Origin: Escherichia phage vB_EcoM_WFH
Sequence record: NC_048194.1
Length of the DNA: 64,000 nt
Strand: one strand, 5' to 3'
Part shown: piece by piece, positions 7,655-63,507 of the stretch
Numbering within the stretch: the first letter of the stretch is position 1
How the letters are laid out: each line of letters starts with the position of its first letter
Notes under the pieces: model-generated
The model's database searches: none
The model's input: only the letters and a program-made list of their open reading frames with translations
What the model was told of the DNA's origin: nothing
Made by a program: the position numbers and the translations under genes

Positions 7655-8575
7655 ATGACGATACCAATCAGCACGTTTCCTCTATCTGGACAAACGCCAG
7701 TATTGCCTGCTGTATATGCTAACGGTTTGGCGATTGTTTCGGAATTCACATCCGATAAAAACCTGATTGTTCCATTGAGTCCGCCATTGGCGTCTGGATA
7801 CAATTCAGTTGGCCAGTTCTTTATGATCGGTAATGATGGCGATTCTACCAGCAAGCCGAATCTGACACTTTCAGTTCCCAAAATGAACATAACAGACGTG
7901 CAGACTGGTTTAACTGCATCTACGATCACCATCGCTTTTGGAGAAGCAGTGATTATAGGCATGGAGTCTGGAGGGTCCAATAATGCTGTCGCCGTTAAGG
8001 TAGTCAAATCCAGCAGCAACCAATACACACTACCAGCGGCAACGGCTTCTATTCTCGGCGGCGTCAAAATAGGAAGTGGCATAAGCGTTGCAGGTGACGG
8101 TACAATTAGTGTGACTCAATACTCATTACCGATTGCATCAGCATCAACCTTGGGTGGCATAAAGGTAGGAACGACACTATCAATTGATGGTTCTGGCGTC
8201 CTTAATGCTGCTGCAAGTACTGTGCAGAACGCAAGCAACAGCGTAAGCAATCCTCCGACAACTCTGGTGAATCTGGCAACCTTAAACCTGCCTGCAGGGA
8301 AATGGCTTGTGACAGCAAGTCAGTTGACTGTCGCGACAGCAGGAGTTCAAGCGAATACCGGAATTACAGTCAAACTGTCAACAAGTAATTCAGATATTAC
8401 GGATGATGCATTTACAATGTCAGCTGGAATTCGGGCTGCAGGTCGTTTCGGCGGCAATATTCCAACAAAGATAATTACCCTTGCCGCGCCTGGCAACGTG
8501 TATCTAAACTATCAATGCACAGACGCATTGACATCTACCGTTTACGGACAGATCACCGCAATTAAGTTGAACTAA
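7655..8575 (+). CDS. virion structural protein with fibre-like internal repeats
   Basis: ATG at 7655 with RBS gagg; repeated ...ASILGGVKIGSGISV.. / ..ASTLGGIKVGTTLSI.. units, Ser/Thr/Gly-rich. Confidence 0.45.
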   Translation: MTIPISTFPLSGQTPVLPAVYANGLAIVSEFTSDKNLIVPLSPPLASGYNSVGQFFMIGNDGDSTSKPNLTLSVPKMNITDVQTGLTASTITIAFGEAVIIGMESGGSNNAVAVKVVKSSSNQYTLPAATASILGGVKIGSGISVAGDGTISVTQYSLPIASASTLGGIKVGTTLSIDGSGVLNAAASTVQNASNSVSNPPTTLVNLATLNLPAGKWLVTASQLTVATAGVQANTGITVKLSTSNSDITDDAFTMSAGIRAAGRFGGNIPTKIITLAAPGNVYLNYQCTDALTSTVYGQITAIKLN

Positions 8576-8585
8576 AGAGGAAGTT

Positions 8586-8723
8586 ATGCAAAAGATTATT
8601 CAGTCACGTTACGTTAAAGTGCGAAATATTAATTGCAACTCTTTGCTTTCTTGGAAATGGGCTGTTTACGACTCGATGCTGATTGGCGTTTTAGTTGCTG
8701 GAGTGCTTTTTAATATTCACTGA
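8586..8723 (+). CDS. small hydrophobic ORF (45 aa)
   Basis: Good RBS aaagaggaa upstream of ATG; product MQKIIQSRYVKVRNINCNSLLSWKWAVYDSMLIGVLVAGVLFNIH; below track size cutoff. Confidence 0.25.
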   Translation: MQKIIQSRYVKVRNINCNSLLSWKWAVYDSMLIGVLVAGVLFNIH

Positions 8724-8756
8724 ATCGCCTGGCAATGGATTGCCGCAGGATTTTAC

Positions 8757-9040
8757 GCGTATAATGACGTATCATCCGTATCAAGTAAGTAGTTGTTTTC
8801 AAAAGAATCTTACGGATGATACGGATGATACGCGTTGCCGCGATACTTTATAGGAATTCAAATAAATTAATTTAAAATTATATATCTAATTTAATTTTAT
8901 TTTTTTATAAACTCTTATATATGAAAAGTATCCGTATCATCCGTATCATCCGTAGCACACCAGTGATAGCGCGGCTTATACACCGATACGGATAAAAATA
9001 CGCCTCATTTTATCCGTATCATCCGTATCACACTAATTAA
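8757..9040. repeat. iteron module copy A: tandem/inverted 9-mers (CCGTATCAT / TTATCCGTA) flanking an AT-rich spacer
   Basis: gcgtataatgacgta..., cttacggatgatacggatgatacgcg, ~90-bp AT-rich tract, then tccgtatcatccgtatcatccgta and ttatccgtatcatccgtatca; 45-bp core nearly identical (2 mismatches) to 60229-60273. Confidence 0.7.
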
Positions 9041-9145
9041 GGCGCGACTATATCGGTTGTTATACATATTCAAACCATAATTATTGTTTGCCTAAGTTTT
9101 TTTCATTAGATATAATACACAATACTTATTTGAGGGTGGATGCGA

Positions 9146-11192: not shown

Positions 11193-12332
11193 ATGACTCG
11201 CATTAGCCAAACACACTCTCGCCTCCCAGCGAGCAAGGTGCGCCCTTTTGATATGCAATCCGTGACCGACGCGGCTGTTTCCCAGCTTGCGCGTATCGGT
11301 ATTGTGTTTGATTCCGCGATTGTGCGTGATCAGATTGAGCACTTAAACCGTGCAGGTGCTTTCCGCGTAGGTGACGCCGCATTTACTGCGCCGCAAACCA
11401 CGCCATCAATCCCGACCCCGCTGCAGTTCCTGCAACAGTGGCTGCCTGGCTTCGTCAAAATCATGACCGCTGCCCGTAAAATTGACGAGCTGGTTGGTAT
11501 TGACACCGTTGGTCAGTGGGAAGATGCAGAAATCGTTCAGGGCATCGTTGAACCAGCTGGCACCGCAGTTGAATATGGTGATTTCACCTCTATTCCTCTG
11601 GCAAGCTGGAACGTGAACTTTGAACGCCGTTCCATCGTTCGCGGTGAAATGGGCATGGCAGTCGGCATGCTGGAAGAAGGCCGCGCGTCTGCGATGCGTC
11701 TGAACTCTGCAGAGACCAAGCGCCAGCAGGCTGCTGTATCTCTGGAAATCATGCGTAACGCAATCGGCTTCTATGGTTGGTATAACGGGAACAACCGCAC
11801 GTTCGGCTTCCTGAATGATCCAAACCTGCCAGCGGCAATGACTTCAAACACCACTTCCGGCTGGGCTACTGCGACCTTCCAACAGGTGACTGCAGACATC
11901 CGTTTGATGGTTCGTCAAATCCGTGTCAACTCTCAGGACCAGATTGATCCAGAGAAGGTTGATATGACTCTGGCGCTGCCGACCAACTCTATTGATTGGC
12001 TGTCAAACACCACCGACTTCGGTATTTCTGTACGTGACTGGATCACCCAGACTTATCCGAAGATGAAGATCAAATCTGCACCGGAACTCAACGGCGCACT
12101 TGGCAGTGACCCGACTTTCCTGAACGTGGCATATCTGTACGCTGATCACATCGATTCCTCAATTGATGGCTCAAGCGATGATGGTTCCGTATTCAGTCAG
12201 CTGGTCCAGACTAAGTTTATGACTCTGGGCGTTGAGAAACGCGCTAAGAGCTACGTTGAAGACTACGCAAACGCAACAGCAGGCGTTCTGCTCAAGCGTC
12301 CTTTCGCAGTCGTCCGTATGACTGGTATCTAA
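11193..12332 (+). CDS. major capsid protein (putative)
   Basis: 379 aa, RBS aggtga, follows scaffold, followed by strong stem-loop; size and position typical of HK97-fold capsid proteins. Confidence 0.55.
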
Positions 12333-12357
12333 TTGCTGTGATTACACAGTAAAACAC

Positions 12358-12387
12358 ATGGGGCGTGGTCGAAAGGCTTCGCCCCAT
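12358..12387 (+). terminator. stem-loop downstream of capsid gene (ATGGGGCG...CGCCCCAT)
   Basis: 8-bp GC-rich stem, 14-nt loop; lacks a clear U-tract, so may be attenuator or RNA-stabilising hairpin. Confidence 0.4.
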
Positions 12388-12447
12388 ATCAATAGACCTC
12401 AAGGGCTGTAGGGGCTTATCTGAGGCTTATATAAATAGGACTACAAA

Positions 12448-18886: not shown

Positions 18887-19446
18887 TGGACTTTGTTTCG
18901 ATTCTGCTCTCTGGTCAATCTCTGACCATAACGAATGAGTCAACAGGGATTCCTGTATGGGCAAAGCTTTCTCCAGTGTCTGCAGAAATAACATCACCAG
19001 CAGAAACTACTCAATTTCCACTTGCTGGAACGGCGATGCAGGTTGTGGAAGTATCAAGCACATCCTCAGTAAGCAATTTACAGGCGGCAAAAGTAATAAT
19101 GCCAGCGCACATGGCGCTAAACGTAATTTGCAATGACCAATCGACTATTGAAAACATAATTAATACATTCGACAATGATGAAGTTACATTTTCAATAACT
19201 TCTCGAAGCATAATTGCAAGCAAAATGTCGATGTCTGATGTCGAAATAACTCAGTCAGAAGAAAACCTGAATGGAGTCTCAATTGTAATAACATTTGAAC
19301 AGACGTCATTTAGTATTCAGGGAAGCTTTGACCCTAAACAGTCCGCAGATGAATCGTCAAATGGCGTGGCTATTAAAGAGCCAGTCAGTTTGACTACAAC
19401 TGTGAGTTCGTTATATAATAAAATAAAATCAACAGTAGGAATATAA
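18886..19446 (+). CDS. hypothetical tail protein (186 aa)
   Basis: ATG overlapping upstream stop; Ser/Thr-rich. Confidence 0.35.
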   Translation: MDFVSILLSGQSLTITNESTGIPVWAKLSPVSAEITSPAETTQFPLAGTAMQVVEVSSTSSVSNLQAAKVIMPAHMALNVICNDQSTIENIINTFDNDEVTFSITSRSIIASKMSMSDVEITQSEENLNGVSIVITFEQTSFSIQGSFDPKQSADESSNGVAIKEPVSLTTTVSSLYNKIKSTVGI

Positions 19447-19447
19447 A

Positions 19448-19864
19448 ATGAAGATCACCAATAAACAAACTGGTCGCAAAGTAGAAATTAAAATCAGCAA
19501 AATGACTGCGATGGAAGGTTGGAACATACAGCGCCGATTCATCGAATTTGCAATGTCAAAAGACCCTGCATTTCGTTCAGAATATACAATGGAAGTATTA
19601 AGCTTTGCAAAGGTTGAACTTGATGTAGGGCAAGAAATTCCTCTGAGCACTGGCGCACTTATTGACAACCATCTTGGCGACTGGGAAAACTTGAAATTGG
19701 TTTTCGAAGCGGTGTTGATGGAAAACGGAATAAACCCAGAGACTCACGCTGAACGTGAAGGATACTGGGAACAGGCTGGCGGCGAAATGGCTGCAGCATT
19801 TATTGGCGAATCGATGCGATTAATCGCGCCATTCCTCAGCGGCGAGACTCCAAACAAGGGGTAA
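19448..19864 (+). CDS. putative tail assembly chaperone
   Basis: 138 aa acidic protein immediately upstream of tape measure gene; assignment by position only. Confidence 0.3.
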   Translation: MKITNKQTGRKVEIKISKMTAMEGWNIQRRFIEFAMSKDPAFRSEYTMEVLSFAKVELDVGQEIPLSTGALIDNHLGDWENLKLVFEAVLMENGINPETHAEREGYWEQAGGEMAAAFIGESMRLIAPFLSGETPNKG

Positions 19865-19867
19865 ACT

Positions 19868-22048
19868 GTGTCTGACTCATTAGAAAAATTTGTTCTTCAA
19901 TATACGGTGGACTTGAAAGAGTCCATCAATCGTCTTGAGCAATTGCAAGATAAGGTTGATCAGACAAACAAAAAGGCAAAGTCAGCTGGCAAAGACTTCA
20001 CTGGAGCATTCAAGGATGTGTTTGGGGAGTTGAAGCCTCTCACAGCTGAACTGGGGTCTATTGACGGAATCCTTGCGCGGCTTACTTATCGCTTTGCCGC
20101 GCTCGTCCCTGTTGTCGCAGGATTGGCTGTCGTAGTCAAATCTATCGTTGATGTTCGAAAAGAATACGAAGCGCAAAGGAAGCTTGGATTTGAAGCAGGT
20201 CTTTCACCAATTGGCGTAGAGCAATTACAGCGACAATTGAATGAAAGTTCAGGCGGAGTTCTTGGTGCGCAAGGGTCAAGGGATTTAATCAGCAAGGCTT
20301 CTAATCTCGCATTCAACGCATACACCAACCCCGATGTGATGAACAAGGATAACTTGCTGCTGAACAAGATGGGGACCAGTCCTTTCAACAGTAACGGCGG
20401 CATCAAAGACACAAACCAGCTGCTTGATGAAATTGGCACAAAGCTGAGAAGTGTGAATGAGCAAACCGCTCGTGCTATTGGTGCTCTGGCAGGTTTTACC
20501 GCCGATGAAGTCCGTGCGCTTCGTGAGCGAAATCAATCAGTCAAAGAAAGCACCCGTATAAGCGACGAAGAAACGGCGAAGCTGCAAAGACAGCAGGCTG
20601 CGCTTGAAACGATACGAAACAGCATGGGCCAAATTCAAGAAGACTGGCGACGCATTGAACTGGTAATCGGTGAGAACGTGATGCCTGCATTCTCGACGCT
20701 TGTCAGCAAGACTGCCGATACAGTCGAAGGATTCCAGATGATGTTCCAAAGGATGTCTGATGGATGGTCTGAATTTGTCGACAATTTCATCGCTGATTTG
20801 AAACACCCGTTCGATAAACAGGCAGCTGTTAACGAGCGTCACGAGCGTGCCGTTGATAGATGGATCACTCAGATGGCTGACGGCGATGTGAAACGCCAGA
20901 GGAACCAGGAGCAAAACGCGGCTGAGCAACGTTCTGCTCAAGCACTTTTCACTCGCGATATAAACCTGTTTTCAAGCGCCGTTTCAACCTTTGCTGGTGT
21001 TATTGATGAGCGACAAGCGTGGGCTGCATGGGCTGGTGAGATAGGACGAAGCGCAGGCCAATCCGCAATGCCTGGCACGCCAGCACTAAGCACTGGCGCG
21101 ACCGTAGGCAACAACTTGGGGTCAGGAAATCCGACTGCATATGACTCAATCTATGAGGAAGCCTCCAAGCGTTATGGAATCCCTGTTGCGATGATGAAGG
21201 CCGTCACAGAAGTCGAATCTGGATTCAACCCTAATGCCGTAAGCGGAGCAGGCGCGACCGGATTGATGCAAATAATGCCTTCCAACTTCAAGGGACTTGG
21301 CATCACAGACGGTAACGACCCAAGACAAAACATTATGGGCGGCGCTCAACTTCTCAAGGAATATTTAACTGCTGCCAATGGCGATTGGAATCTTGCGCTG
21401 ACTATGTATCACGGCGGATATGACCGCAGCGGATGGGGAAAGAACACCCGCGCATACCCTGGCAAGGTGATGGCCGCTCTCGAACGACAGGCGAATGGAG
21501 AATACGCCACGGGAGCGCCGCAAGGTGCACCAGTTACTCCAGTGCTTAGCGGTAGCGGAGCAGAAGCGCCGAAAGGAAGCTATGCACCAGTACAAGGCCA
21601 ATCCCGCCAAACGGTGCAATACAGACAGTTGCAAGAAGCCATTGCAGGATACCTAAACGTGCCAGTTGAGCAGCTGATGCAAGGGCAAGTTAACAAAGGT
21701 GATATTGACTTTGCTCAAACTTACCTTAAACTTGGAACGCAAAGGGATTATATTAAAAACATGCAGCTGGCTTCAACTCCAGGCGTAAGACCGAACATTC
21801 AGGCCGAAGCGATGAAGAATGCTCGTCTTGCGGCATTCCAGCTTGAGGCGTTCCAGAAATACGGCGGCGACCTCTCCGCGAATAGTCGACCTGGTGGGCG
21901 TGATATTACTGTGGGTCAGAAAAACGTTGTCATCAACGTCAACGGCGCTCAAGACCCACGAAGCACGGCTATTGAGACTAAGCGCGTGCTTGAACAAGAT
22001 GATATCAACGACATAAACAACCTTACTGCTACACCTTTGAAGTGGTGA
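19868..22048 (+). CDS. tape measure protein with lytic transglycosylase (SLT) domain
   Basis: 726 aa, coiled-coil-rich N-half; C-half contains AMMKAVTEVESGFNPNAVSGAGATGLMQIMPSNF, the classic SLT catalytic-region motif (E-S ... GLMQ). Confidence 0.6.
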   Translation: MSDSLEKFVLQYTVDLKESINRLEQLQDKVDQTNKKAKSAGKDFTGAFKDVFGELKPLTAELGSIDGILARLTYRFAALVPVVAGLAVVVKSIVDVRKEYEAQRKLGFEAGLSPIGVEQLQRQLNESSGGVLGAQGSRDLISKASNLAFNAYTNPDVMNKDNLLLNKMGTSPFNSNGGIKDTNQLLDEIGTKLRSVNEQTARAIGALAGFTADEVRALRERNQSVKESTRISDEETAKLQRQQAALETIRNSMGQIQEDWRRIELVIGENVMPAFSTLVSKTADTVEGFQMMFQRMSDGWSEFVDNFIADLKHPFDKQAAVNERHERAVDRWITQMADGDVKRQRNQEQNAAEQRSAQALFTRDINLFSSAVSTFAGVIDERQAWAAWAGEIGRSAGQSAMPGTPALSTGATVGNNLGSGNPTAYDSIYEEASKRYGIPVAMMKAVTEVESGFNPNAVSGAGATGLMQIMPSNFKGLGITDGNDPRQNIMGGAQLLKEYLTAANGDWNLALTMYHGGYDRSGWGKNTRAYPGKVMAALERQANGEYATGAPQGAPVTPVLSGSGAEAPKGSYAPVQGQSRQTVQYRQLQEAIAGYLNVPVEQLMQGQVNKGDIDFAQTYLKLGTQRDYIKNMQLASTPGVRPNIQAEAMKNARLAAFQLEAFQKYGGDLSANSRPGGRDITVGQKNVVINVNGAQDPRSTAIETKRVLEQDDINDINNLTATPLKW

Positions 22049-22052
22049 TCAT

Positions 22053-22925
22053 TTGAAAAAGAGAATCCTTAAAGTCACCTTATCCATGCCGGATGGCACA
22101 AGCCAAGTGCTTGACGAAGGATTGATGCTTAGATGCCGAATCAAAAAGGCAGCACTTTCCGTTCAGAATAAGGCCACGATTGAAGTCGCAGGATTAACAG
22201 GGTACTTGAGAGAGTACCTGCTTTCCAACTTCACGGCATTCAACAAACGTCTGCGTGATCAAGGCCAGCTGGCGGCGAACTACGTCAACGTGACTATTGA
22301 AGCTGGATACAGAGAAGGGAATGTAATCAGCAGCAACTTGGTATACAAGGGACAGGTGACGACAGTTGAGATAACAGCGCCGCCGCCGAATATTGTCATC
22401 AGAATCACTTGCTACACCAACCAAATAAACAGAACTAAGTTCATCACTCAAGCTGCGCCATCCAACCCGACTTTCAAAGAGTTTGTGGAATGGTCTGCAA
22501 AACAAATGGACATCGATACTGTTATTTGTGATACGTCGATTAACAATCAGCGACTTGTGAATCCAGGAAGGACGACATATGTTGCTGCTGCGCTGCTGCT
22601 TGAGATCCAGAACTATCAACGCAACTCCATCGCGGCATACATTGATGACGATACGTTAATTGTCAAGGATAAAGACAAAATTCTAAATCCAGACCAGATT
22701 ACGGTCATTGAGGAATTTGTCGGAATACCGATGTGGAATGAGTGGGGTGCAGACTTCACTTGTATGTATAACGCAGATTTGAAGCTTGCACAAGGTGTTA
22801 AATTCAAATCAGTCTTAAACCCAAGCTTGAACGACACTACATTTGTCATCATGCAACTTGAATATGATTTAGCAAGTCGTGATGATATATTTACGGTGAC
22901 GGGCGGCGTTGCACCATCGGCATAA
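22053..22925 (+). CDS. hypothetical tail/baseplate protein (290 aa)
   Basis: TTG start (first in-frame ATG at codon 12); follows tape measure. Confidence 0.35.
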   Translation: MKKRILKVTLSMPDGTSQVLDEGLMLRCRIKKAALSVQNKATIEVAGLTGYLREYLLSNFTAFNKRLRDQGQLAANYVNVTIEAGYREGNVISSNLVYKGQVTTVEITAPPPNIVIRITCYTNQINRTKFITQAAPSNPTFKEFVEWSAKQMDIDTVICDTSINNQRLVNPGRTTYVAAALLLEIQNYQRNSIAAYIDDDTLIVKDKDKILNPDQITVIEEFVGIPMWNEWGADFTCMYNADLKLAQGVKFKSVLNPSLNDTTFVIMQLEYDLASRDDIFTVTGGVAPSA

Positions 22926-22927
22926 AT

Positions 22928-23449
22928 ATGAGAAAGAATAAAGTAATTGACTTGTTTGGCGTTACTTATGAAATTCATCAATTCAGCGCAATAGATGCAT
23001 TCGAAATGGTGGACGACATAAGCATATTAACTCCACTTGAATTATTGAGTGAATGTTATGTCATCAAATATGACGGGTCCAAAGTAAGGCTTAATTCTGA
23101 AAAAGTAATTAGTGAGGAAGTGAAAAGCATACCTAATCACTTGCCGCCTAATCTTGTGTTGAAAGTATTAATGGAAGCCGTTAAAAAGCACAACTTTGGA
23201 TTCCTTAGCGATTGGAAAGGCACCAAGATTCCAAATAGATTCTTGGCGGATGCACCGACAGTAGAGCCTAATTATCTTGAGCCAATGGTTGCAAGTCTAA
23301 TAAATAACGGCCTTGCCTCTTTAAAGGAGTTGGAAGAATACTATTCATTGCGTGATGCATTTGCCATGTTTGATGGTTTAATAGCAAAATCACTTAATGA
23401 AGCCTACTCAAACGAAGCTGCCATTAAAGAATCAAAGTCAAATCGCTAA
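22928..23449 (+). CDS. hypothetical tail/baseplate protein (173 aa)
   Basis: ATG start; structural array. Confidence 0.35.
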   Translation: MRKNKVIDLFGVTYEIHQFSAIDAFEMVDDISILTPLELLSECYVIKYDGSKVRLNSEKVISEEVKSIPNHLPPNLVLKVLMEAVKKHNFGFLSDWKGTKIPNRFLADAPTVEPNYLEPMVASLINNGLASLKELEEYYSLRDAFAMFDGLIAKSLNEAYSNEAAIKESKSNR

Positions 23450-23459
23450 AATATTGCTT

Positions 23460-23508
23460 ATAGACTCCTTATAGATTATAATTTGTTGATCAGATATAAG
23501 GAGTCTAT
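23460..23508 (+). promoter_or_regulatory. perfect 14-bp inverted repeat enclosing the RBS and start of the next gene
   Basis: ATAGACTCCTTATA (23460-23473) and TATAAGGAGTCTAT (23495-23508), loop contains TATAAT; 3' arm contains AGGAG and first bases of ATG 23507. Confidence 0.5.
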
Positions 23509-24235
23509 GATGGCAGAAAAGTTAACCCAACTTACAAGCCCCAACCAAACTGACAAATCAAGTATGTTTGCCGCGCTTCAGGGAATGCTGGACCGTGGCA
23601 AGTATACCACTGATGGCATGATTCCTGCGCAAGTAATATCTTATGACCGCAAGAAAAATTTAGCAGTCATAAAACCTGTTATTCATTTCGTAAGTCTTGA
23701 TGATAAGCCAGTGGAGCGTCAACCTTTGGTGTCAATTCCGGTACTGGCAATCGGCGGCGGCGGATTCGTGATCAACTTCCCTTTGAAGGAAGGCGACTTG
23801 GGCTGGATATTCGCTGGCGACCGCGAGTTGTCGACATTCCTTGAAGAATTGAAGCCGACCGCGCCTACCAATGGCCGTGTAAAAACTTTCGCTGATGGAC
23901 TGTTCATACCGGATGTATTCCGAAAATACACCATAAGCGGAGAGGATGCAGGGTCAATGGTAATTCAATCCCTCAGCGGCGCTGTGAGAATTGCACTAAG
24001 CGATGACTCAATAAACATAACTGCGTCTGCTGGAGTAAACGTCAAGACCCCGATAACCACTATCGATCAACAATTGATAGTAAATGGAAAGGCAACATTC
24101 AATGGTGGGATAGAAGGCAAAGAAGGAACGACGGCAACGCTTCCGACTGGCACAACGGTCGGCGGCATTGATGTATCCACTCACGGGCATATCGGTAACG
24201 GGCCTGGAAACAGAACTGGGAATATGATAGAATGA
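23507..24235 (+). CDS. baseplate spike / gpV-like protein (putative)
   Basis: ATG at 23507 after RBS aggag (track start 23483 is TTG); OB-fold-like N-region pattern and Gly-rich C-terminus recalled from baseplate assembly protein V family. Confidence 0.4.
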   Translation: MMAEKLTQLTSPNQTDKSSMFAALQGMLDRGKYTTDGMIPAQVISYDRKKNLAVIKPVIHFVSLDDKPVERQPLVSIPVLAIGGGGFVINFPLKEGDLGWIFAGDRELSTFLEELKPTAPTNGRVKTFADGLFIPDVFRKYTISGEDAGSMVIQSLSGAVRIALSDDSINITASAGVNVKTPITTIDQQLIVNGKATFNGGIEGKEGTTATLPTGTTVGGIDVSTHGHIGNGPGNRTGNMIE

Positions 24236-25503
24236 GTGCACAATATTCTTACATAGTAAGCACTGGTGTGATCACCATTGACACGGCAGATTTATTGGCT
24301 GATGTTCAAGATGAATGGATTGAGTCTTTAGGGGTCGGGCTTGATGTTGATGCTTCGACGCCGCAAGGCACGCTAATCGCAACAGAAACGTTGGCAAGAA
24401 CTTCAGTGATGAAGAACAATGCCGAATTGGGAAGTCTCATCAACCCTAACTACTCATATGGAGTATATCTTGATGCAATCGCGGCGCTTCTTGGTATCGA
24501 GCGCACAAAGAACGTAAGCACGATGTTGAAAGGTGTGACTGCAGAGGGAGTGCCGCTGCTGGAAATTCCTGCTGGAAGTCTTCTTACTGATTCAAATGGT
24601 ACATACTGGTATGTTCTGGAAGACGTTCAAATCACTTCGACTGGCAAGACAAGCAATATGACTCTTGCGTCAAAAGATTATGGATCATTCACTGTTGCGC
24701 CTGATGAAGAGTTTACAGTGGTGCAAGGTTATGATGTCATCGGATGGTCAAGAACTTATTCAACGTCGGCAACAACGACCGTGCCAGGAACACAATACAT
24801 GAGCGACGGAGCATTAAAGGCCGCTCGTGTTAAGCGTCTTTACCAGCAGGGCATTGCATCGCTTGGTGCCATTCGCGCTCGCGCCATGTCGGTCGACGGT
24901 GTAGAATCTGTGATGGTCGTTGAGAACGACACAGGAGCGCCTGGAACGGTGCGCGGCATCACCTTCTCAACGCCTAACGGTGTTTGGGTGTGCGCAAGCG
25001 GAACATTTGACAAGCAAGTGTTTGCGGAGACGATATTCAAGGCGAAGATGGGCGGTCAACCTTGGGACTTTGGCGCTGCTAATCAAGGTGATCCGGTAAA
25101 CTCGCCTGATGGAATCGAAGTGGTCGATGCAGAATCACAACTGTCTTATTTCGTCAAATTCAACACTGCAGTGATATATGATTTGTATGTTGATATAACC
25201 GTTTCAAGAGGAACGGCTACCGCTGATGCTGAGTCTATTATTGCCGCTGTACTGAATTACGGCAATGGCAATTTTAACGGTGAGCAGGGGTATACAGTAG
25301 GGCAATCTCAATCTTCTTTTGAAATTGCTTCAGCAGTATCCTGCGAATATCCAGGACTTTACATCAAAGATTGCAAAATTGCAGCAGTCAAAAGCGGACA
25401 GGCAGCGCCAACTTATCCTTCCGATTATGGCAGCGAGTGGATTGCCAATCCATGGGATAAGGCCAATACCATGCGCGGCTTCATCAACGTTAAATTTGTG
25501 TGA
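24232..25503 (+). CDS. baseplate J-like protein
   Basis: 423 aa, ATG overlapping upstream stop; N-terminal pattern recalled from baseplate_J family; position after V-like gene. Confidence 0.45.
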   Translation: MSAQYSYIVSTGVITIDTADLLADVQDEWIESLGVGLDVDASTPQGTLIATETLARTSVMKNNAELGSLINPNYSYGVYLDAIAALLGIERTKNVSTMLKGVTAEGVPLLEIPAGSLLTDSNGTYWYVLEDVQITSTGKTSNMTLASKDYGSFTVAPDEEFTVVQGYDVIGWSRTYSTSATTTVPGTQYMSDGALKAARVKRLYQQGIASLGAIRARAMSVDGVESVMVVENDTGAPGTVRGITFSTPNGVWVCASGTFDKQVFAETIFKAKMGGQPWDFGAANQGDPVNSPDGIEVVDAESQLSYFVKFNTAVIYDLYVDITVSRGTATADAESIIAAVLNYGNGNFNGEQGYTVGQSQSSFEIASAVSCEYPGLYIKDCKIAAVKSGQAAPTYPSDYGSEWIANPWDKANTMRGFINVKFV

Positions 25504-25509
25504 GGAACT

Positions 25510-28248
25510 ATGCAAAAGTTTGACACAAACCTGTTGCAAAACCTTAAGTGGATGCAGAACAACGCGCCAAACATCACATCTTTGGTTCAGAAGAAGAGCG
25601 ACTGGTATGAGCGATATCAAGATCAGTTTTGGATTGACTGGTACAAGAACATATTCAACATTGATACTTGTGATGCAATGGGCATCTATATTTGGTGTGA
25701 CATCCTATGCATACCAAGGGATTTTGTTGACTTAAGCAACTATGAGCACAACTGGGCGTTTGGACCCACACGCGACAACTTCGAAGGGCCGGACAATATC
25801 GGCGGCAACTTCTTTGGTGCTGGCGGAAAGGTTGTGAAAAACATCGAAGAAGCCCGCATCCTTCTGAAGCTTCGTTATCTGACGCTTACAAGTGATGGCC
25901 GCATAGAAAGCATCAACCGTATGCTTAAGTGGATTTTCAACCGTGGAGAAGATTGGGATTACTCTTCATCGCGCTACGCATATGTGACAGATAATACTCA
26001 AGGCGCGGTGTCTTCTTCTGAAGCCACAAACGGCTCATTCCTTCTGTACGACTGGCAGGGGTCAACTGAGATTCAGCACGATTATAAACAAGTTCTTTTG
26101 AGCCACGGCAACAACGCAGGACTTACCATAAGTGGGGTGGCAGGGACCGTTTCGCGAATGGCACACCCAGACTGGTATTCATGGGGCAATGGTTCCGGCG
26201 CTGGTATTGTCGGCGGCGATACACGACAATATGGCGGCCCTGACTATTACGGCCAACTGTGCGGTGACTACCCAGGAGAGGCCATAGAGAATTTCGCCAA
26301 CGCAGTACGGGTCATCAAGACCGCTTCCAGCGGCGAGCCTGTGTATTCTTTGGCCAATAATCCAAGCGCCCAATCTATTGCGCTTCCTTCTCAGGCTGGT
26401 GTCAACGTTTGCTATAGCTTCTACATAAAAGTGCTTTCTGAAAACGTGGCTTCTGTTTCCGTAACAGAGAACAGTGATGCATCGAGTAATGGAAAACTTT
26501 TCGACCCAGTGACTGGGCAGTTCAATCTTGACTCTTCTTTGAGTTATTTCATCACAGGCAAGTTCGACGGTGTGAGAAGGGAATCAAACCGTGGTGGCAT
26601 CAAGGCAATCGGCGGCGATTGGTACAGAATCTGGATTGTAGAGCAAACTGCAAACGCGACGGCTGGGGTGAAAACAAGCTTTTCAATTGAGTTGAAAGCA
26701 ACTGCCGCTGGATCAACCCAGACTCGCGAATTGCCTGAAGGGTCTGATGCGCTTCTTTTTGGATACTCCATTTGTGTTTGCGACCCTGTTCAAAATCCTA
26801 ATGGGCCTGAGCCTTATTTCTATGGGACTCAAAATCCTCCTGCAGATGGAACGGCAATCCTGTCTGTTACGGCAGGAACGCTCAACAACATATCTTGCGC
26901 AAACGGTCCGTTGACCACAAGGGATGGCGTGGTAGGTGAATCATTCATGCAGCCTGGTTCATCGCTTGCATACTCTGGTTCAATCGGCGGCTACCCGTAC
27001 CCAGGAAACGCAACATTGATTGCAGAGACAGATGGAATCAGACGCTCATGGAACGTTAGCCGACTGGACGGCGTACCGCCGCCGCCGACCGCTGACTATT
27101 ACATGGAATATGTCATCGGGCCTTATTTCGCCAACAACTTATCCGACAACTTTAAGACGCTAGTTGGCGACAGGAATGAAGGATTCTTGCCAGCAAATGC
27201 CGGAATACGTTGGCAGCTTTACCAAGAAGTCGCAGACTTATCTGATATTGATTTGACCGTCAGCAACATAACAGACACGCGAGTAGGATTCGAAACGGAA
27301 GGTGTCGCATGGATTAACACTGACGGCATCATCAGAGTTGGCGGCATAAACGAGTGGCCGTTAAACAACTTCAAAGGTGTTATACGACAGCTTGAATCTT
27401 TGAAAGGTGTGAACCAAGTTATCGACGGCGCACTTGTCAACGACTATTCAATCTCAAAAGCATCAAGAGATGACTTTGGTCGTGAAATCCCACGTGCTGC
27501 GATCACAAACTACTGGCGATACACACAGCCCAATGACGGCACATCTTTTGGAAATATCGTCAAGGACGGAGATAACACGGTAACGGCGACGCCAATCAGC
27601 GGTGTGCCCAACCAGTTCCCATCATTCAAGCTTTCCGCTACAATAGGGACTGTGCCAGCGTCCGGCTATGCACGTGCTGTACTTGCTACTAAATACACTG
27701 GCAACCTGACTGGTCCTTTGTCATTTATCGCAATAGTTAAAAACAACACGGTAAACGGTCAAAAACTTTTCGTAACCGTACCGGATGGTATGGGCGGCTA
27801 TATCCCTAAATTCTACAGCATAGGCGCAGGTGATTTGCAACGCATCGAAATTGACCTTGCCGCTGAGATTGTTGCAGGAACGACTTGGGATGGTTCGACA
27901 GGTGGAATCAGCATTGGTTTGATATCAGGGAAAGACTTGCCGACCGAAGTCGGTACGACTCTTGAACTTGATATTTTAAGCTTGATGCTTGTTTCTGGTA
28001 ATACGATGAATGCGCTTGCGATTTCAACAAGCGAAGACTTTGCAAAGAAAACTGCAACTTCTATATACATCAAAAACCCAGGGTCACTGGCGACTGGAGT
28101 TCAATTGATAGCTTCGAATGGGGATGTTGTAGCGACAGTAAACTTTCCAAGAAGTGCTGCTGGCGGTTATGTCTCAAGCATGAATATAACTGACTTAACT
28201 GGTGATTGGGCATCAACCCTTTTATCAAAAATTAAATACATCGTGTAG
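25510..28248 (+). CDS. large tail fibre / baseplate wedge protein
   Basis: 912 aa, Gly/Ser/Thr/Asn-rich with repetitive beta-rich character; located between baseplate J-like and distal fibre genes. Confidence 0.45.
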   Translation: MQKFDTNLLQNLKWMQNNAPNITSLVQKKSDWYERYQDQFWIDWYKNIFNIDTCDAMGIYIWCDILCIPRDFVDLSNYEHNWAFGPTRDNFEGPDNIGGNFFGAGGKVVKNIEEARILLKLRYLTLTSDGRIESINRMLKWIFNRGEDWDYSSSRYAYVTDNTQGAVSSSEATNGSFLLYDWQGSTEIQHDYKQVLLSHGNNAGLTISGVAGTVSRMAHPDWYSWGNGSGAGIVGGDTRQYGGPDYYGQLCGDYPGEAIENFANAVRVIKTASSGEPVYSLANNPSAQSIALPSQAGVNVCYSFYIKVLSENVASVSVTENSDASSNGKLFDPVTGQFNLDSSLSYFITGKFDGVRRESNRGGIKAIGGDWYRIWIVEQTANATAGVKTSFSIELKATAAGSTQTRELPEGSDALLFGYSICVCDPVQNPNGPEPYFYGTQNPPADGTAILSVTAGTLNNISCANGPLTTRDGVVGESFMQPGSSLAYSGSIGGYPYPGNATLIAETDGIRRSWNVSRLDGVPPPPTADYYMEYVIGPYFANNLSDNFKTLVGDRNEGFLPANAGIRWQLYQEVADLSDIDLTVSNITDTRVGFETEGVAWINTDGIIRVGGINEWPLNNFKGVIRQLESLKGVNQVIDGALVNDYSISKASRDDFGREIPRAAITNYWRYTQPNDGTSFGNIVKDGDNTVTATPISGVPNQFPSFKLSATIGTVPASGYARAVLATKYTGNLTGPLSFIAIVKNNTVNGQKLFVTVPDGMGGYIPKFYSIGAGDLQRIEIDLAAEIVAGTTWDGSTGGISIGLISGKDLPTEVGTTLELDILSLMLVSGNTMNALAISTSEDFAKKTATSIYIKNPGSLATGVQLIASNGDVVATVNFPRSAAGGYVSSMNITDLTGDWASTLLSKIKYIV

Positions 28249-44565: not shown

Positions 44566-44585
44566 TTTCGTTTCCTCTATGAGTT

Positions 44586-44622
44586 CTGCTTCAATGATTA
44601 AAGTATACGCCCATTGAAGCAG
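44586..44622 (-). other. intergenic stem-loop (11-bp inverted repeat CTGCTTCAATG / CATTGAAGCAG)
   Basis: Between FAD-oxidoreductase stop and next gene's RBS; possible processing or regulatory hairpin. Confidence 0.35.
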
Positions 44623-44630
44623 AAAGCAAA

Positions 44631-60440: not shown

Positions 60441-60578
60441 GCCAGCAGCGGCTAAGTCATTGATTTGCATAACAAGCGGCGAAAGGGATGGATTTCTTTT
60501 ATGCGTATCAAACAGTACACCACGCACCACGGTCCGATATTCATTCAGCACTATGATTTATGTACTTTTACAGCCAAT

Positions 60579-60605
60579 TTGAACATCAATCTGCACTTGA
60601 ATATA
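60579..60605 (+). promoter_or_regulatory. promoter-like element (TTGAAC ... TGnAATAAT) upstream of TerS-like gene
   Basis: -35-like TTGAAC and extended -10-like TGAATAAT about 50 bp upstream of ATG 60658, followed by two tandem ATTTGCACTATG repeats. Confidence 0.35.
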
Positions 60606-60657
60606 ATGTTCAATCATTGTATAATTCACACTATTAATTTGCACTATGGGATTTGCA

Positions 60658-61133
60658 CTATGAGTCAAGATTATGTAGCAATGCCTGAAGACTTTGAAGA
60701 CCCGCGATTTGCAGAGCATAATCAGGCATTATTCGATGAGTTCATTGACCTTGTTATTCAGGGCCATGACATGCGCGCAGCTTTTGCACTAGTATTTGGC
60801 ATGGAGGTTGCGACCGATAACTACACTGGCCAGCGAATCCTGTGCACTCAGCGCAACCCGTACTACAAGATGCGCTACAAAAAGCGCATGGAAGAAATGC
60901 CATTGAAGGAATTGTGGAGCGTAAAAAGTTCCATCCACAATTTAGTGAAGCTTGTGCGTGATCCAGAAGTCGCGGCGTCAGCCAAGCTTAATGCCATTCG
61001 TGAACTGAATATCATCTACGGCATCACGATGATTGATGAAAATGGCAATAGTAAAATGGGCCGTTCCATGGACGATTTCTACAAGGATTTTGGAGAGGCA
61101 GCCAAAGAGGGTGAGCAATTCTCCCGCCACTAG
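60658..61133 (+). CDS. terminase small subunit-like DNA-binding protein (tentative)
   Basis: ATG at 60658 (track ORF 60465 starts upstream in AT-rich non-coding DNA); 158 aa; ...NQALFDEFIDLVIQGHDMRAAFALVFG...RILCTQRNPYYKMRYKK... resembles TerS N-terminal HTH pattern; start codon overlaps a repeat copy. Confidence 0.3.
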
Positions 61134-61150
61134 CCAATTTGCACTATAAA

Positions 61151-61188
61151 ACGGCCCTAGAACACATTTTCTCCACTTCTAGGGCCGT
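61151..61188 (+). terminator. stem-loop (ACGGCCCTAGAA-n14-TTCTAGGGCCGT) downstream of TerS-like gene
   Basis: 12-bp stem; no strong U-tract. Confidence 0.45.
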
Positions 61189-61561
61189 TGGTAATACGAC
61201 GGGGAAGGCTGCAACCATGAACGCGTTAGAAAGTGTATTATTATAAGTCATCTTTTAGTCACTTTACGTAACAATTTACGACCTTCCGCCGTCCAGTCGA
61301 ACGACTCCACCAGCAGATTTGCACTATAACCTAAGACGATGCGCCCCTTCTCGTTATCGACCCGCCAACAAGTCTCGAATAGCATTCGATTTGCACTATT
61401 AACTATCGCCGCAACGCGCGTTGGGTAAGCGCAATTTGCACTATGGTCGTAAAGGGATAAGGTGCGACCACTGCCGATGGACAACGTAGCGATGAGAATA
61501 AGCGTATTCATAAGCCACCAATTTGCACTATGAAAAGCGACCCCGAAGGGCCGCCATTCGA

Positions 61562-62188
61562 TTAGATAATCTGGAAGGTGTAGGACTTGTTGCCGAACTC
61601 GAAGTTCAAGCGCCCAGCTTCCTTAAGCTTCATGCGGAAGCGAATATGTTTGCTATCCGGTAAGCCCAGCGCGGCGAACGCTACGCGGACCGATTTGAAC
61701 TCGCCTACACCCTCGACCATAACGGCGTTACGGGTGAGACGCTTTTGCGCCACTTCCTTGTTATCCCAACTTTTTGCAATACCTTCGCTATTAGAACGGC
61801 GATGGGAAGGAGTTCCATTTTGCACTACGCAATTTGCACTATCGTTTAGGCCGCTCTTAACGAAGGCTTCATACTCTTCGTCGGTCATCGCGTCGAGTTC
61901 TTCCTGAGTCGGCTCGGCCTTTTTAACGACCGCACGCGCCTTATGCGTTTTTACATCGCTGGACACTTCCTCGCGCGGCTTCGCGTCGGGGATGGGCAAT
62001 TCGTTGGACGGCTCATCGAGCGCGTTTAAGGACTCGATTAACGCGATGACGCGAGTCTCAGCGGTGCGACGGTCCACAAACTTCTTAATCGGTTTTGAGC
62101 CGGAGTTGGCATTATAGAATGCAACGAGGTCGGCGGTCTTAGTTGCGATAACGTCGCCGCTAGTAGAAAAGCGATTTAAGCTAACCAT
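61562..62188 (-). CDS. hypothetical protein (208 aa)
   Basis: Track ORF in CpG-rich block; contains two ATTTGCACTAT-type motifs within its coding sequence (61817-61842); no recognised domain. Confidence 0.4.
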   Translation of the reverse strand: MVSLNRFSTSGDVIATKTADLVAFYNANSGSKPIKKFVDRRTAETRVIALIESLNALDEPSNELPIPDAKPREEVSSDVKTHKARAVVKKAEPTQEELDAMTDEEYEAFVKSGLNDSANCVVQNGTPSHRRSNSEGIAKSWDNKEVAQKRLTRNAVMVEGVGEFKSVRVAFAALGLPDSKHIRFRMKLKEAGRLNFEFGNKSYTFQII

Positions 62189-63216: not shown

Positions 63217-63507
63217 ATGATTACTTTAGCCGCTATCCGTTCCGCTCGCGTCGAAACTTCCGAAAACTCTAACGTATTTGGCGAAAAACTTAAAAACGTT
63301 TATCTCTTTAACGTAGATGCGACTATCGAAGAGCTTCATAGTCCTATCGATTTTAGCGAATTTACGGAACTCGAAGAGGAAGATATTACTACCTTCCGCG
63401 TTACTATCGAAGGTAAGGTTTATTTTGCTACGGAGTTCGGCGGCGAATATCTCGCGGTATCCGAAGGCGAAGGCCGTTACTCTTTCTTTAAAATCGTCTC
63501 CTTATAA
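63217..63507 (+). CDS. small acidic protein, paralogue B (96 aa)
   Basis: ATG with RBS aggag; MITLAAIRSARVETSENSNVFGEKLKNVYLFNVDATIEELHSPIDFSEFTELEEEDITTF... Confidence 0.45.
   Translation: MITLAAIRSARVETSENSNVFGEKLKNVYLFNVDATIEELHSPIDFSEFTELEEEDITTFRVTIEGKVYFATEFGGEYLAVSEGEGRYSFFKIVSL

What the first reader, a model, noticed from the sequence alone, without database searches (positions are those of the whole stretch)
23460..23508. Perfect 14-bp inverted repeat that would sequester the Shine-Dalgarno and start codon of a baseplate gene
ATAGACTCCTTATA and TATAAGGAGTCTAT are exact reverse complements separated by a 21-nt loop containing TATAAT. The 3' arm includes AGGAG and the first bases of the ATG at 23507. 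As RNA this forms a stable hairpin occluding the ribosome-binding site, which could throttle or time translation of the spike-like protein; as DNA it is a palindromic operator candidate. It may also act as the terminator of the upstream gene.
Basis: seen in the sequence. Interest (0 to 1): 0.45.

Follow-up and report, generated by a model that had tools for sequence, protein, structure and literature searches.

The report
Promoter-embedded hairpin locking spike gene's ribosome site

Summary
Arms 23460-23473 and 23495-23508 are a perfect 14-bp inverted repeat. The 21-nt loop holds TATAAT, and the 3' arm holds AGGAG. The RNA folds at -26.7 kcal/mol (z -5).

The window is a Wifcevirus, a PB1-like E. 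coli myophage. The repeat lies in the only sizeable gap of the baseplate module, upstream of the central spike gene.

In the relative Pseudomonas phage 14-1, the same gap holds a published, reporter-validated promoter (P018). Its mapped start site lies in the hairpin loop, downstream of the 5' arm.

Across 23 divergent lineages the promoter and a hairpin persist while the arm sequences change completely:
- Cognate pairing beats non-cognate pairing (z -9.4).
- One pair of relatives differs by five compensatory pairs.
- G-U-tolerant changes and a sense-strand bias point to RNA.

Best reading (about 0.55): read-through mRNA has its ribosome site locked, and promoter-derived mRNA is open. This is the logic of T4 genes e, soc, 49 and I-TevI. 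The terminator and operator readings are not supported. It is a new member of a known kind, of moderate interest.

The parts
22928..23449 (+). Upstream gene: 173-aa conserved hypothetical protein. Its stop codon ends 10 nt before the 5' arm.
   Evidence: ORF list. It is annotated in all relatives and keeps the same synteny. It has no Pfam or PDB hit.
23418..23425 (+). Distal 5' strand (CUGCCAUU), inside the upstream coding sequence. In long RNA it pairs with 23509-23516, which includes the AUG at 23510.
   Evidence: Fold of 23400-23560: -34.4 kcal/mol, z -4.4. It lies in a stretch (23405 to about 23487) that is invariant in 12 Wifcevirus genomes.
23454..23459 (+). -35-like hexamer TTGCTT, 17 nt upstream of the -10 and preceded by an A/T-rich run.
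   Evidence: Direct reading. Relatives have tTTAC-type hexamers in the aligned column.
23460..23473 (+). 5' arm of the hairpin (ATAGACTCCTTATA). It fills the promoter spacer and is absent from promoter-derived RNA.
23477..23482 (+). -10 hexamer TATAAT, in the hairpin loop.
   Evidence: A TATAAT-like hexamer is conserved at this place in 23 lineages. The ortholog, 14-1 P018, is a mapped and reporter-validated sigma-70 promoter.
23489..23490 (+). Predicted transcription start, 7-8 nt after the -10. This is inferred, not mapped in this phage.
   Evidence: By analogy with the 14-1 start site at 28318, which is 8 nt after TATACT.
23495..23508 (+). 3' arm of the hairpin (TATAAGGAGTCTAT). It contains the Shine-Dalgarno AGGAG (23499-23503) and the first two bases of the ATG at 23507.
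23510..24235 (+). Central baseplate spike gene, a phi92 gp138-type puncturing protein. The likely start is the ATG at 23510.
   Evidence: Pfam N-terminal spike domain. PDB homologs are E217 gp43 (8eon), Pa193 gp44 (9b45), SN gp41 (4ru3) and phi92 gp138 (3pqi). The N-terminus is conserved.
19390..19419 (+). Candidate upstream promoter (TTGACT-18-TATAAT, 11 of 12 matches). It is the likely source of read-through RNA that contains both arms.
   Evidence: Promoter scan. Its position is equivalent to the mapped 14-1 P017. No terminator signal above chance lies between it and 23460.

Best explanation
The gap between the 173-aa gene and the central spike gene holds a host sigma-70 promoter (TTGCTT-17-TATAAT). 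The hairpin is built around that promoter.

- The 5' arm occupies the promoter spacer.
- The -10 sits in the loop.
- The 3' arm is essentially the whole 21-nt leader, including AGGAG and the start region.

**Long RNA.** RNA that arrives from upstream promoters contains both arms. It folds into a helix of about -25 kcal/mol, extended by a second helix over the AUG at 23510. Ribosomes therefore cannot initiate on the spike gene.

**Short RNA.** RNA started at the internal promoter begins at about 23489, downstream of the 5' arm. It cannot form the helix and has an open ribosome-binding site.

Spike translation is thus tied to its own promoter and uncoupled from read-through transcription. This is the same logic as T4 genes e, soc, 49 and I-TevI.

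**Shown:** the repeat, its stability, its conservation, co-evolution of the arms, and a mapped start site in the ortholog.

**Inferred:** promoter activity and start site in this phage, the existence of read-through RNA, and the actual block of translation.
For: 1. **Structure.** RNA fold of -26.7 kcal/mol, z -5. With upstream context it is -34.4 kcal/mol, z -4.4, with the Shine-Dalgarno sequence and both AUGs paired. The predicted promoter-derived RNA (23489-23560) folds at only -6.1 kcal/mol, z +0.55, with that region open. The probability that -13..+3 is unpaired is 0.10 in long RNA and 0.71 in short RNA.

2. **Promoter.** The gap with the same synteny in Pbunavirus 14-1 holds promoter P018. 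Its start site, 28318, was mapped by ONT-cappable-seq. It is classed sigma-70, it drives msfGFP in E. coli and P. aeruginosa, and its transcription unit is spike plus wedge. That start site lies in the loop, 3' of the 5' arm.

3. **Conservation within the genus.** Positions 23400-23600 are the least variable part of 22000-26000 in 12 genomes: 3-4 variable columns per 100, against a mean of 14.7.

4. **Conservation of structure, not sequence.**
   - A gap with a TATAAT-like -10 and a hairpin onto the start region recurs in relatives from Pantoea, Serratia, Pseudomonas, Xanthomonas and metagenomes, with unrelated arm sequences.
   - Pairing between the 45 nt upstream of the start site and the leader is far stronger for cognate than for swapped partners. 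The sum is -424.8 against -269 +/- 16.6 (z -9.4; 0 of 50,000 permutations; 23 lineages).
   - L029 and L083 share an identical 19-nt promoter core but differ by five consecutive double, pair-preserving substitutions in the stem (read from the sequences).

5. **RNA rather than DNA.**
   - The three arm differences between MTx and its relative L023 all keep pairing through G-U.
   - The sense duplex is more stable than the antisense duplex in 20 of 24 lineages (p = 0.0002), with 55 against 38 G-U pairs.

6. **Specificity.**
   - Of 99 promoter-like sites in the window, this one has the strongest upstream-to-leader pairing: -25.1 against -10.1 +/- 4.3.
   - Other mapped 14-1 structural promoters score -9 to -15, against -24.2 for P018.

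7. **Precedent.** Uzan and Miller 2010 (PMC3014915) describe the T4 cases.
Against: - No transcript or translation data exist for any Wifcevirus. The start site and the read-through RNA are inferred.
- The leader is only about 20 nt and the gap is filled by the promoter. Any hairpin placed in this gap would almost unavoidably overlap the Shine-Dalgarno sequence. The overlap could therefore be a geometric by-product of a hairpin selected for another reason.
- Several lineages have only weak pairing (L025, L034, L042, FoX7, L052, L069). The hairpin is frequent, not universal.
- Unlike T4, the upstream and internal promoters appear to belong to the same host sigma-70 class. No temporal rationale is evident.
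- Within Wifcevirus there is no covariation. The single arm change, in Eco4M-7, breaks a pair.
- A second promoter-like site in the window (44566-44630, minus strand) has a similar inverted repeat around its -10 that does not cover the Shine-Dalgarno sequence.
Confidence: 0.55

Rival explanations
1. The hairpin is an intercistronic RNA element acting on read-through transcripts. It could be a 3'-exonuclease barrier that stabilises the upstream tape-measure, hub and 173-aa message. Or it could be a processing site, for example for RNase III, that separates the two halves. On this reading the overlap with the ribosome site is incidental to the cramped gap.
For: - It shares the RNA-level, sense-strand and co-evolution evidence of the main explanation.
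- In long RNA the helix reaches about 20-24 stacked pairs, which is within the range of RNase III substrates (general knowledge).
- The second site at 44.6 kb has a hairpin around a promoter that leaves the Shine-Dalgarno sequence free.
- The geometric argument holds: the spacer and the leader are the only freely evolvable segments of the gap.
Against: - In many lineages the helix is only 9-13 bp, for example 10 bp in PB1-like phages. That is short for RNase III.
- The helix consistently runs up to or across the start codon. In the L040 lineage, where the mRNA is predicted to be leaderless, the arm pairs with the AUG itself.
- Whatever the selected purpose, the ribosome site is physically sequestered in the long RNA.
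- The 44.6-kb hairpin is not conserved in 14-1, unlike the spike hairpin.
Confidence: 0.2
2. The element acts at the DNA level. The inverted repeat flanking the -10 would be an operator for a dimeric regulator, or a cruciform sensitive to supercoiling or replication, that tunes the spike promoter.
For: - The arms bracket the -10 precisely, one in the spacer and one in the initial transcribed region.
- A second promoter-like site with the same TTGCTT -35 has the same geometry.
Against: - The arm sequences are unrelated between lineages and between the two sites in this window. No other copy exists in the window.
- The half-sites are 35 bp apart centre to centre, which is atypical for a single dimer.
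- Substitutions are tolerated as G-U. The structure is more stable on the sense strand in 20 of 24 lineages. A symmetric DNA element does not predict this.
Confidence: 0.07
3. The hairpin is a transcription terminator or attenuator for the upstream gene.
For: It is a stable stem-loop beginning 10 nt after the stop codon.
Against: - No U-tract follows the stem; the sequence is GATGGCAGAAAAG. The stem is A/T-rich.
- The terminator scan does not detect it.
- In 14-1 no termination site was mapped anywhere in the structural module. The terminator list jumps from 6661 to 35525.
Confidence: 0.03
4. The repeat is a chance palindrome with no function, conserved only because the genus is young.
For: No covariation is seen within Wifcevirus. 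The relatives are 90-99% identical.
Against: - The expected number per window is 0.04.
- It lies in the most conserved 200 nt of a 4-kb region.
- Equivalent hairpins with different sequences occur in many genera, with a cognate-pairing z of -9.4.
Confidence: 0.03

Closest known systems
Phage T4 gene e (lysozyme), soc, 49 and I-TevI: an inhibitory hairpin with a promoter inside it
   Same: - Long upstream-initiated transcripts fold a helix that sequesters the Shine-Dalgarno sequence and/or the AUG.
- A promoter lies in or next to the 5' strand of the helix, so its transcripts lack that strand and are translated (PMC3014915).
- The geometry here is identical. It is backed by a mapped start site in the ortholog.
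   Different: - The T4 promoters are phage late promoters (TATAAATA, gp55-dependent), and the gate is temporal, early against late.
- Here the promoter is host sigma-70 type and active without phage factors in reporters. The upstream promoters look like the same class.
- The role is therefore more likely insulation or dosage control than timing.
- The gene is a virion spike, not a lysis or homing gene. No experiment exists for this phage.
Promoter P018 of Pseudomonas phage 14-1 (Putzeys et al. 2024)
   Same: - It sits in the orthologous intergenic gap, between the 173-aa-type gene and the spike gene.
- It has a sigma-70 motif and a short leader (about 19 nt).
- Its hairpin, GGGAAGGCU / AGGCUUUCCC, ends at the AUG.
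   Different: - The paper reports the promoter and its transcription unit only. The term search of its text found no mention of a ribosome-site hairpin.
- The arm sequences share nothing with those of the window phage.
Aeh1 mobE hairpin (Gibb and Edgell 2009), cited in PMC3014915
   Same: [quoted passage not shown]
   Different: It concerns a homing-endonuclease gene in a T4-like phage. I did not read the primary paper.
Intercistronic stabiliser hairpins and RNase III sites in polycistronic phage and bacterial mRNAs (general knowledge)
   Same: A stable stem-loop lies between cistrons of a long operon transcript.
   Different: Those elements normally leave the downstream ribosome site free or activate it. 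This helix buries it.

Membership tests
T4 gene e-type promoter-in-hairpin translational gate | A stable helix sequesters the Shine-Dalgarno sequence and/or the start codon in upstream-initiated RNA. | tested here: met
   - Fold energies are -26.7 and -34.4 kcal/mol, with z of -5.0 and -4.4.
- AGGAG and both AUGs are paired.
- The probability that the start region is unpaired is 0.10.
T4 gene e-type promoter-in-hairpin translational gate | A promoter is placed so that its start site lies 3' of the 5' strand of the helix. | tested here: met
   - TTGCTT-17-TATAAT, with the -10 in the loop.
- The orthologous 14-1 P018 start site, 28318, is mapped in the loop and reporter-validated.
- The start site is not mapped in this phage itself.
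T4 gene e-type promoter-in-hairpin translational gate | The promoter-derived RNA has an open translation initiation region. | tested here: met
   - 23489-23560 folds at -6.1 kcal/mol, z +0.55, with the Shine-Dalgarno sequence and AUG unpaired.
- The probability of being unpaired is 0.71.
T4 gene e-type promoter-in-hairpin translational gate | Read-through transcripts from upstream promoters actually cross the element. | not testable with these tools
   The support is indirect only. There is a strong promoter-like site at 19390-19419, and no terminator signal above chance before 23460.
T4 gene e-type promoter-in-hairpin translational gate | Translation from long RNA is strongly reduced relative to short RNA. 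| not testable with these tools
   This needs reporter fusions, toeprinting or Ribo-seq.
Intrinsic (Rho-independent) terminator | A G+C-rich stem is followed by a U-tract. | tested here: not met
   - The stem has 4 G-C pairs out of 14.
- The tail is GATGGCAGAAAAG.
- The terminator scans give no hit.
Palindromic operator of a sequence-specific regulator | The half-site sequence is conserved among relatives and/or repeated at other regulated promoters. | tested here: not met
   - The arms are unrelated across lineages.
- No other copy with 2 or fewer mismatches occurs in the window, apart from one hit at 63493 with 2 mismatches and no partner.
RNase III processing site | A double-stranded helix of roughly two turns is cleaved in vivo. 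| tested here: inconclusive
   The helix has about 20-24 stacked pairs here but only 9-13 in several lineages. Cleavage is not testable.
Any curated RNA family (Rfam 15) | A match at or above the gathering score. | tested here: not met
   The only hit is a sub-threshold chance hit to a miRNA model: 17.7 bits against a gathering score of 100, E 0.7.

The most novel reading that the evidence does not exclude
The inverted repeat may be a DNA-level switch as well as, or instead of, an RNA lock. Its arms sit in the promoter spacer and the initial transcribed region. They would allow cruciform or single-strand hairpin extrusion, making the spike promoter respond to supercoiling or to passage of the replication fork.

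On this reading a host-type promoter would be coupled to phage DNA replication without a phage sigma factor.

The second site in this window points the same way. It lies at 44566-44630 on the minus strand, has the same TTGCTT -35 and the same geometry, and its hairpin leaves the Shine-Dalgarno sequence free.
Probability: 0.07. Interest if true: 0.7.

Novelty: new member of a known kind. Interest (0 to 1): 0.4.

Why it matters
- **Wider distribution of a classic mechanism.** It would show that the T4 device of a promoter inside an inhibitory hairpin is not a T4 peculiarity. It would be maintained by co-evolution of the arms across a whole supergroup of PB1-like myophages (Wifcevirus, Pbunavirus, Kylevirus, Myosmarvirus, Carpasinavirus, Tabernariusvirus and uncultured relatives), and with a plain host sigma-70 promoter.
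- **Annotation.** Promoter-embedded hairpins in tight phage operons should not be called terminators.
- **Engineering.** Many of these phages are therapeutic candidates. Moving or refactoring the spike or baseplate module without its own promoter would silence the spike gene.
- **A clean test.** It offers an experiment on why a virion-assembly operon insulates one gene from read-through translation.

Tried and rejected
- **RNAalifold.** A MAFFT alignment of 20 lineages gave no consensus pairs, because the stems sit in different registers. The alignment only displays the conserved -35 and -10 columns. I used a cognate versus non-cognate pairing permutation test instead.
- **Automatic pairwise mapping of stem pairs.** It mis-registered L029 against L083. 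I re-read the five compensatory pairs by hand, anchoring on the identical promoter core.
- **Rfam.** Nothing meaningful.
- **Literature.** No paper on Wifcevirus promoters or transcripts was found. The PMC copy of the 14-1 paper holds no supplements. The bioRxiv copy supplied the start-site table.
- **Upstream 173-aa protein.** The Pfam and PDB searches returned nothing.
- **Automatic -10 picking.** It chose wrong hexamers for PB1-like phages and for L035. I overrode it using the mapped 14-1 promoter.
- **RNA thermometer.** Considered and rejected, because the perfect helix of about -25 kcal/mol is far too stable.
- **Small ORF in the gap.** Considered and rejected. The TTG at 23483 is merely in frame with the spike ORF.
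- **Generic hairpin at every promoter.** Considered and rejected.

Full report
**What the window is.** Positions 22000-26000 match 27 phage records at 90-99% identity. All are Wifcevirus: E. coli and Shigella myophages of about 68 kb, PB1-like, family Lindbergviridae. The finding lies in the plus-strand tail and baseplate module. The genes there are, in order:
- a lytic tail or tape-measure-type protein (19868-22048);
- a baseplate hub (Pfam E217_GP41; about 22086-22925);
- a 173-aa hypothetical protein (22928-23449);
- a 60-nt gap;
- a 241-aa protein (23510-24235);
- a Baseplate_J wedge protein (24232-25503), and further genes.

The 241-aa protein is a central puncturing spike. It matches solved spikes E217 gp43 (8eon), Pa193 gp44 (9b45), SN gp41 (4ru3) and phi92 gp138 (3pqi).

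**Check of the observation.**
- Arms at 23460-23473 and 23495-23508 are perfect 14-nt reverse complements.
- The 21-nt loop contains TATAAT at 23477-23482.
- AGGAG lies at 23499-23503, and the arm ends on 'AT' of the ATG at 23507.
- The repeat finder confirms 100% complementarity.
- Perfect inverted repeats of 14 bp or more with short loops occur at two loci in the window, against 0.04 expected.
- As RNA, 23440-23530 folds at -26.7 kcal/mol, z -5.0.

One refinement concerns the start codon. The second ATG (23510) gives the 'MA..' N-terminus shared with all relatives and a 6-nt spacing from AGGAG. It is the start most annotators chose.

TTGCTT (23454-23459) lies exactly 17 nt upstream of the perfect TATAAT. 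The 5' arm fills the spacer. The generic scan omitted the site only because its -35 matches 3 of 6 positions.

The same gene order, with a 53-67-nt gap at the same place, is kept in distant relatives:
- Pantoea phage Kyle;
- Serratia phage MTx;
- Pseudomonas Pbunavirus Pa193 and 14-1;
- Xanthomonas phage FoX7;
- P. syringae phage tabernarius.

Their spike proteins are only 34-58% identical to this one.

For 14-1 there is experimental data. ONT-cappable-seq mapped a start site at 28318 on the plus strand. It belongs to promoter P018, class sigma-70, whose transcription unit is spike plus wedge. [quoted passage not shown] 2024, PMC10914365, and the supplement of bioRxiv 10.1101/2023.10.13.562163). 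In 14-1 the upstream gene ends at 28281 and the spike gene starts at 28337. The start site therefore lies in the loop of that phage's own hairpin (GGGAAGGCU / AGGCUUUCCC), downstream of the 5' arm.

**The hairpin is conserved as a structure, not as a sequence.**

Within Wifcevirus the gap is almost invariant. Positions 23400-23600 are the least variable part of the 4-kb region: 3-4 variable columns per 100, against a mean of 14.7. There is no covariation, and one pair-breaking change occurs in Eco4M-7.

Beyond the genus I collected 23 lineages with the gap, from phage records, IMG/VR and metagenomes.
- Nearly all have a TATAAT-like hexamer. It lies 22-32 nt before the start codon in 20 of the 23.
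- Most fold a hairpin whose 3' strand runs up to or over the start codon. The arm sequences are unrelated between lineages.

I tested co-evolution by comparing two segments: the 45 nt upstream of the predicted start site, and the leader through +6.
- Cognate pairs sum to -424.8 kcal/mol, against -269 +/- 16.6 for permuted partners (z -9.4; 0 of 50,000 permutations).
- The cognate partner is the best of all 23 in 10 lineages (the earlier 17-lineage version is).

Two metagenomic relatives, L029 and L083, share an identical 19-nt promoter core (CCGGTGTTAAGGCTATAAT). They differ by five consecutive stem pairs changed on both sides with pairing kept. I read this from the sequences.

**RNA or DNA?**
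- The three arm differences between MTx and its relative L023 all keep pairing through G-U, as does an A-to-G change between Kyle and L063.
- The sense-strand duplex is more stable than the antisense one in 20 of 24 lineages (Wilcoxon p = 0.0002), with 55 against 38 G-U pairs (the MFE-based version is).
- The arms share no sequence between lineages, or with any other place in the window.

This favours a structure in the mRNA over a protein-binding palindrome.

**The switch.**
- Long RNA (23400-23560) folds at -34.4 kcal/mol (z -4.4). The main hairpin buries AGGAG and the first AUG. An extension helix (23418-23425 with 23509-23516) buries the AUG at 23510.
- RNA starting at the predicted start site (23489-23560) folds at -6.1 kcal/mol (z +0.55) and leaves the initiation region open.
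- The mean probability that -13..+3 is unpaired is 0.10 in long RNA and 0.71 in short RNA here. Across lineages it is 0.31 and 0.63.
- The stop codon of the upstream gene ends 10 nt before the stem. By my inference, a terminating ribosome would not melt it.

A strong promoter-like site (TTGACT-18-TATAAT, 19390-19419) sits where 14-1 has its mapped P017. No terminator signal above chance lies between it and the hairpin. Read-through RNA is therefore plausible but unproven.

**Specificity.**
- Among 99 promoter-like sites in the window, this one has the strongest pairing between the upstream segment and the leader: -25.1 against -10.1 +/- 4.3.
- The other structural promoters score much lower. 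In 14-1, the mapped P016, P017 and P019 give -9.4, -14.7 and -14.5, against -24.2 for P018. In the window, the candidates at 19.4 kb and 9.1 kb give -7.3 and -9.9.
- A second promoter-like site (44566-44630, minus strand) has a perfect 13-bp repeat around its -10, but that repeat leaves the Shine-Dalgarno sequence free. Its homologous gap in 14-1 has a mapped start site (P028, 49234) but no comparable hairpin. That repeat is therefore genus-specific, unlike the spike hairpin.

**Interpretation.** The best-supported mechanism is a promoter-embedded lock on the ribosome-binding site. Upstream-initiated RNA cannot initiate spike translation. RNA from the internal sigma-70 promoter can. This is the mechanism documented for T4 genes e, soc, 49 and I-TevI (Uzan and Miller 2010, PMC3014915).

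It differs from T4 in three ways. The promoter is of host type. There is no evident early-versus-late rationale. The gene is a virion spike. I put this reading at about 0.55.

The main caveat is geometric. The gap is fully occupied by the promoter and a leader of about 20 nt. A hairpin selected for another reason, such as RNA stability or processing, would overlap the ribosome site anyway. I give that rival about 0.2.

The other readings fare worse:
- Terminator: there is no U-tract, no scan hit, and no mapped 3' end in the 14-1 structural module.
- Operator or cruciform: disfavoured by the strand bias and by non-conserved arms.
- Chance: excluded by the comparative data.

**Verdict.** The element is a new, comparatively well-supported member of a known kind of translational control. 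It was apparently not described for these phages. The term search of the 14-1 paper found no mention of the hairpin, and no paper on Wifcevirus transcription was found. Interest is moderate.

Noticed in passing
window 8575-9140: A 565-bp non-coding stretch inside the head module. It carries direct and inverted copies of a GATACGGATGATACG-type repeat: a perfect 16-bp inverted repeat at 8768-8783 / 8817-8832, and a 13-bp one at 8985-8997 / 9008-9020. These flank a very A/T-rich core (about 8845-8900). A promoter-like TTGCCT-17-TATAAT follows at 9088-9116, before the gene at 9140. It could be an origin, a packaging site or a regulatory region.
   Followed up: no
window 44566-44630 (minus strand): A second promoter-like site with the same -35 (TTGCTT-16-TATACT). 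A perfect 13-bp inverted repeat (44584-44596 / 44612-44624) brackets the -10, but the Shine-Dalgarno GAGGA lies 8 nt past the hairpin. The site is 95-100% conserved in 27 Wifcevirus genomes. The homologous gap in 14-1 has a mapped start site (P028, 49234) but no such hairpin.
   Followed up: partly
L040 1300-1400 and L074 600-700 (metagenomic relatives): In this lineage TATAAT ends only 6 nt before the spike ATG. That predicts a leaderless spike mRNA. In L040 an upstream strand (CCATCCGTG) pairs with CGACGGATGG, which contains the AUG itself.
   Followed up: partly
window 19390-19419: The best sigma-70 match in the tail module (TTGACT-18-TATAAT, 11 of 12). It lies about 30 nt before the gene at 19448. 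This is the position equivalent to the mapped promoter P017 of 14-1. It has no hairpin onto its leader (-7.3 kcal/mol).
   Followed up: partly
window 12355-12395: A G+C-rich hairpin (CATGGGGCG...CGCCCCATATC) lies just after the major head gene (11193-12332). It is a likely partial terminator or stabiliser after the most abundant structural gene.
   Followed up: no
window 61150-61190: A perfect 13-bp inverted repeat with a 14-nt loop lies after the plus-strand gene 60465-61133 and faces a minus-strand gene (61562-62188). It is probably a bidirectional terminator.
   Followed up: no
window 22928-23449: The 173-aa protein between the hub and the spike is conserved in synteny from E. coli to Xanthomonas phages. 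It has no Pfam hit and no counterpart among solved E217 or Pa193 virion chains. It may be a non-virion assembly factor.
   Followed up: partly
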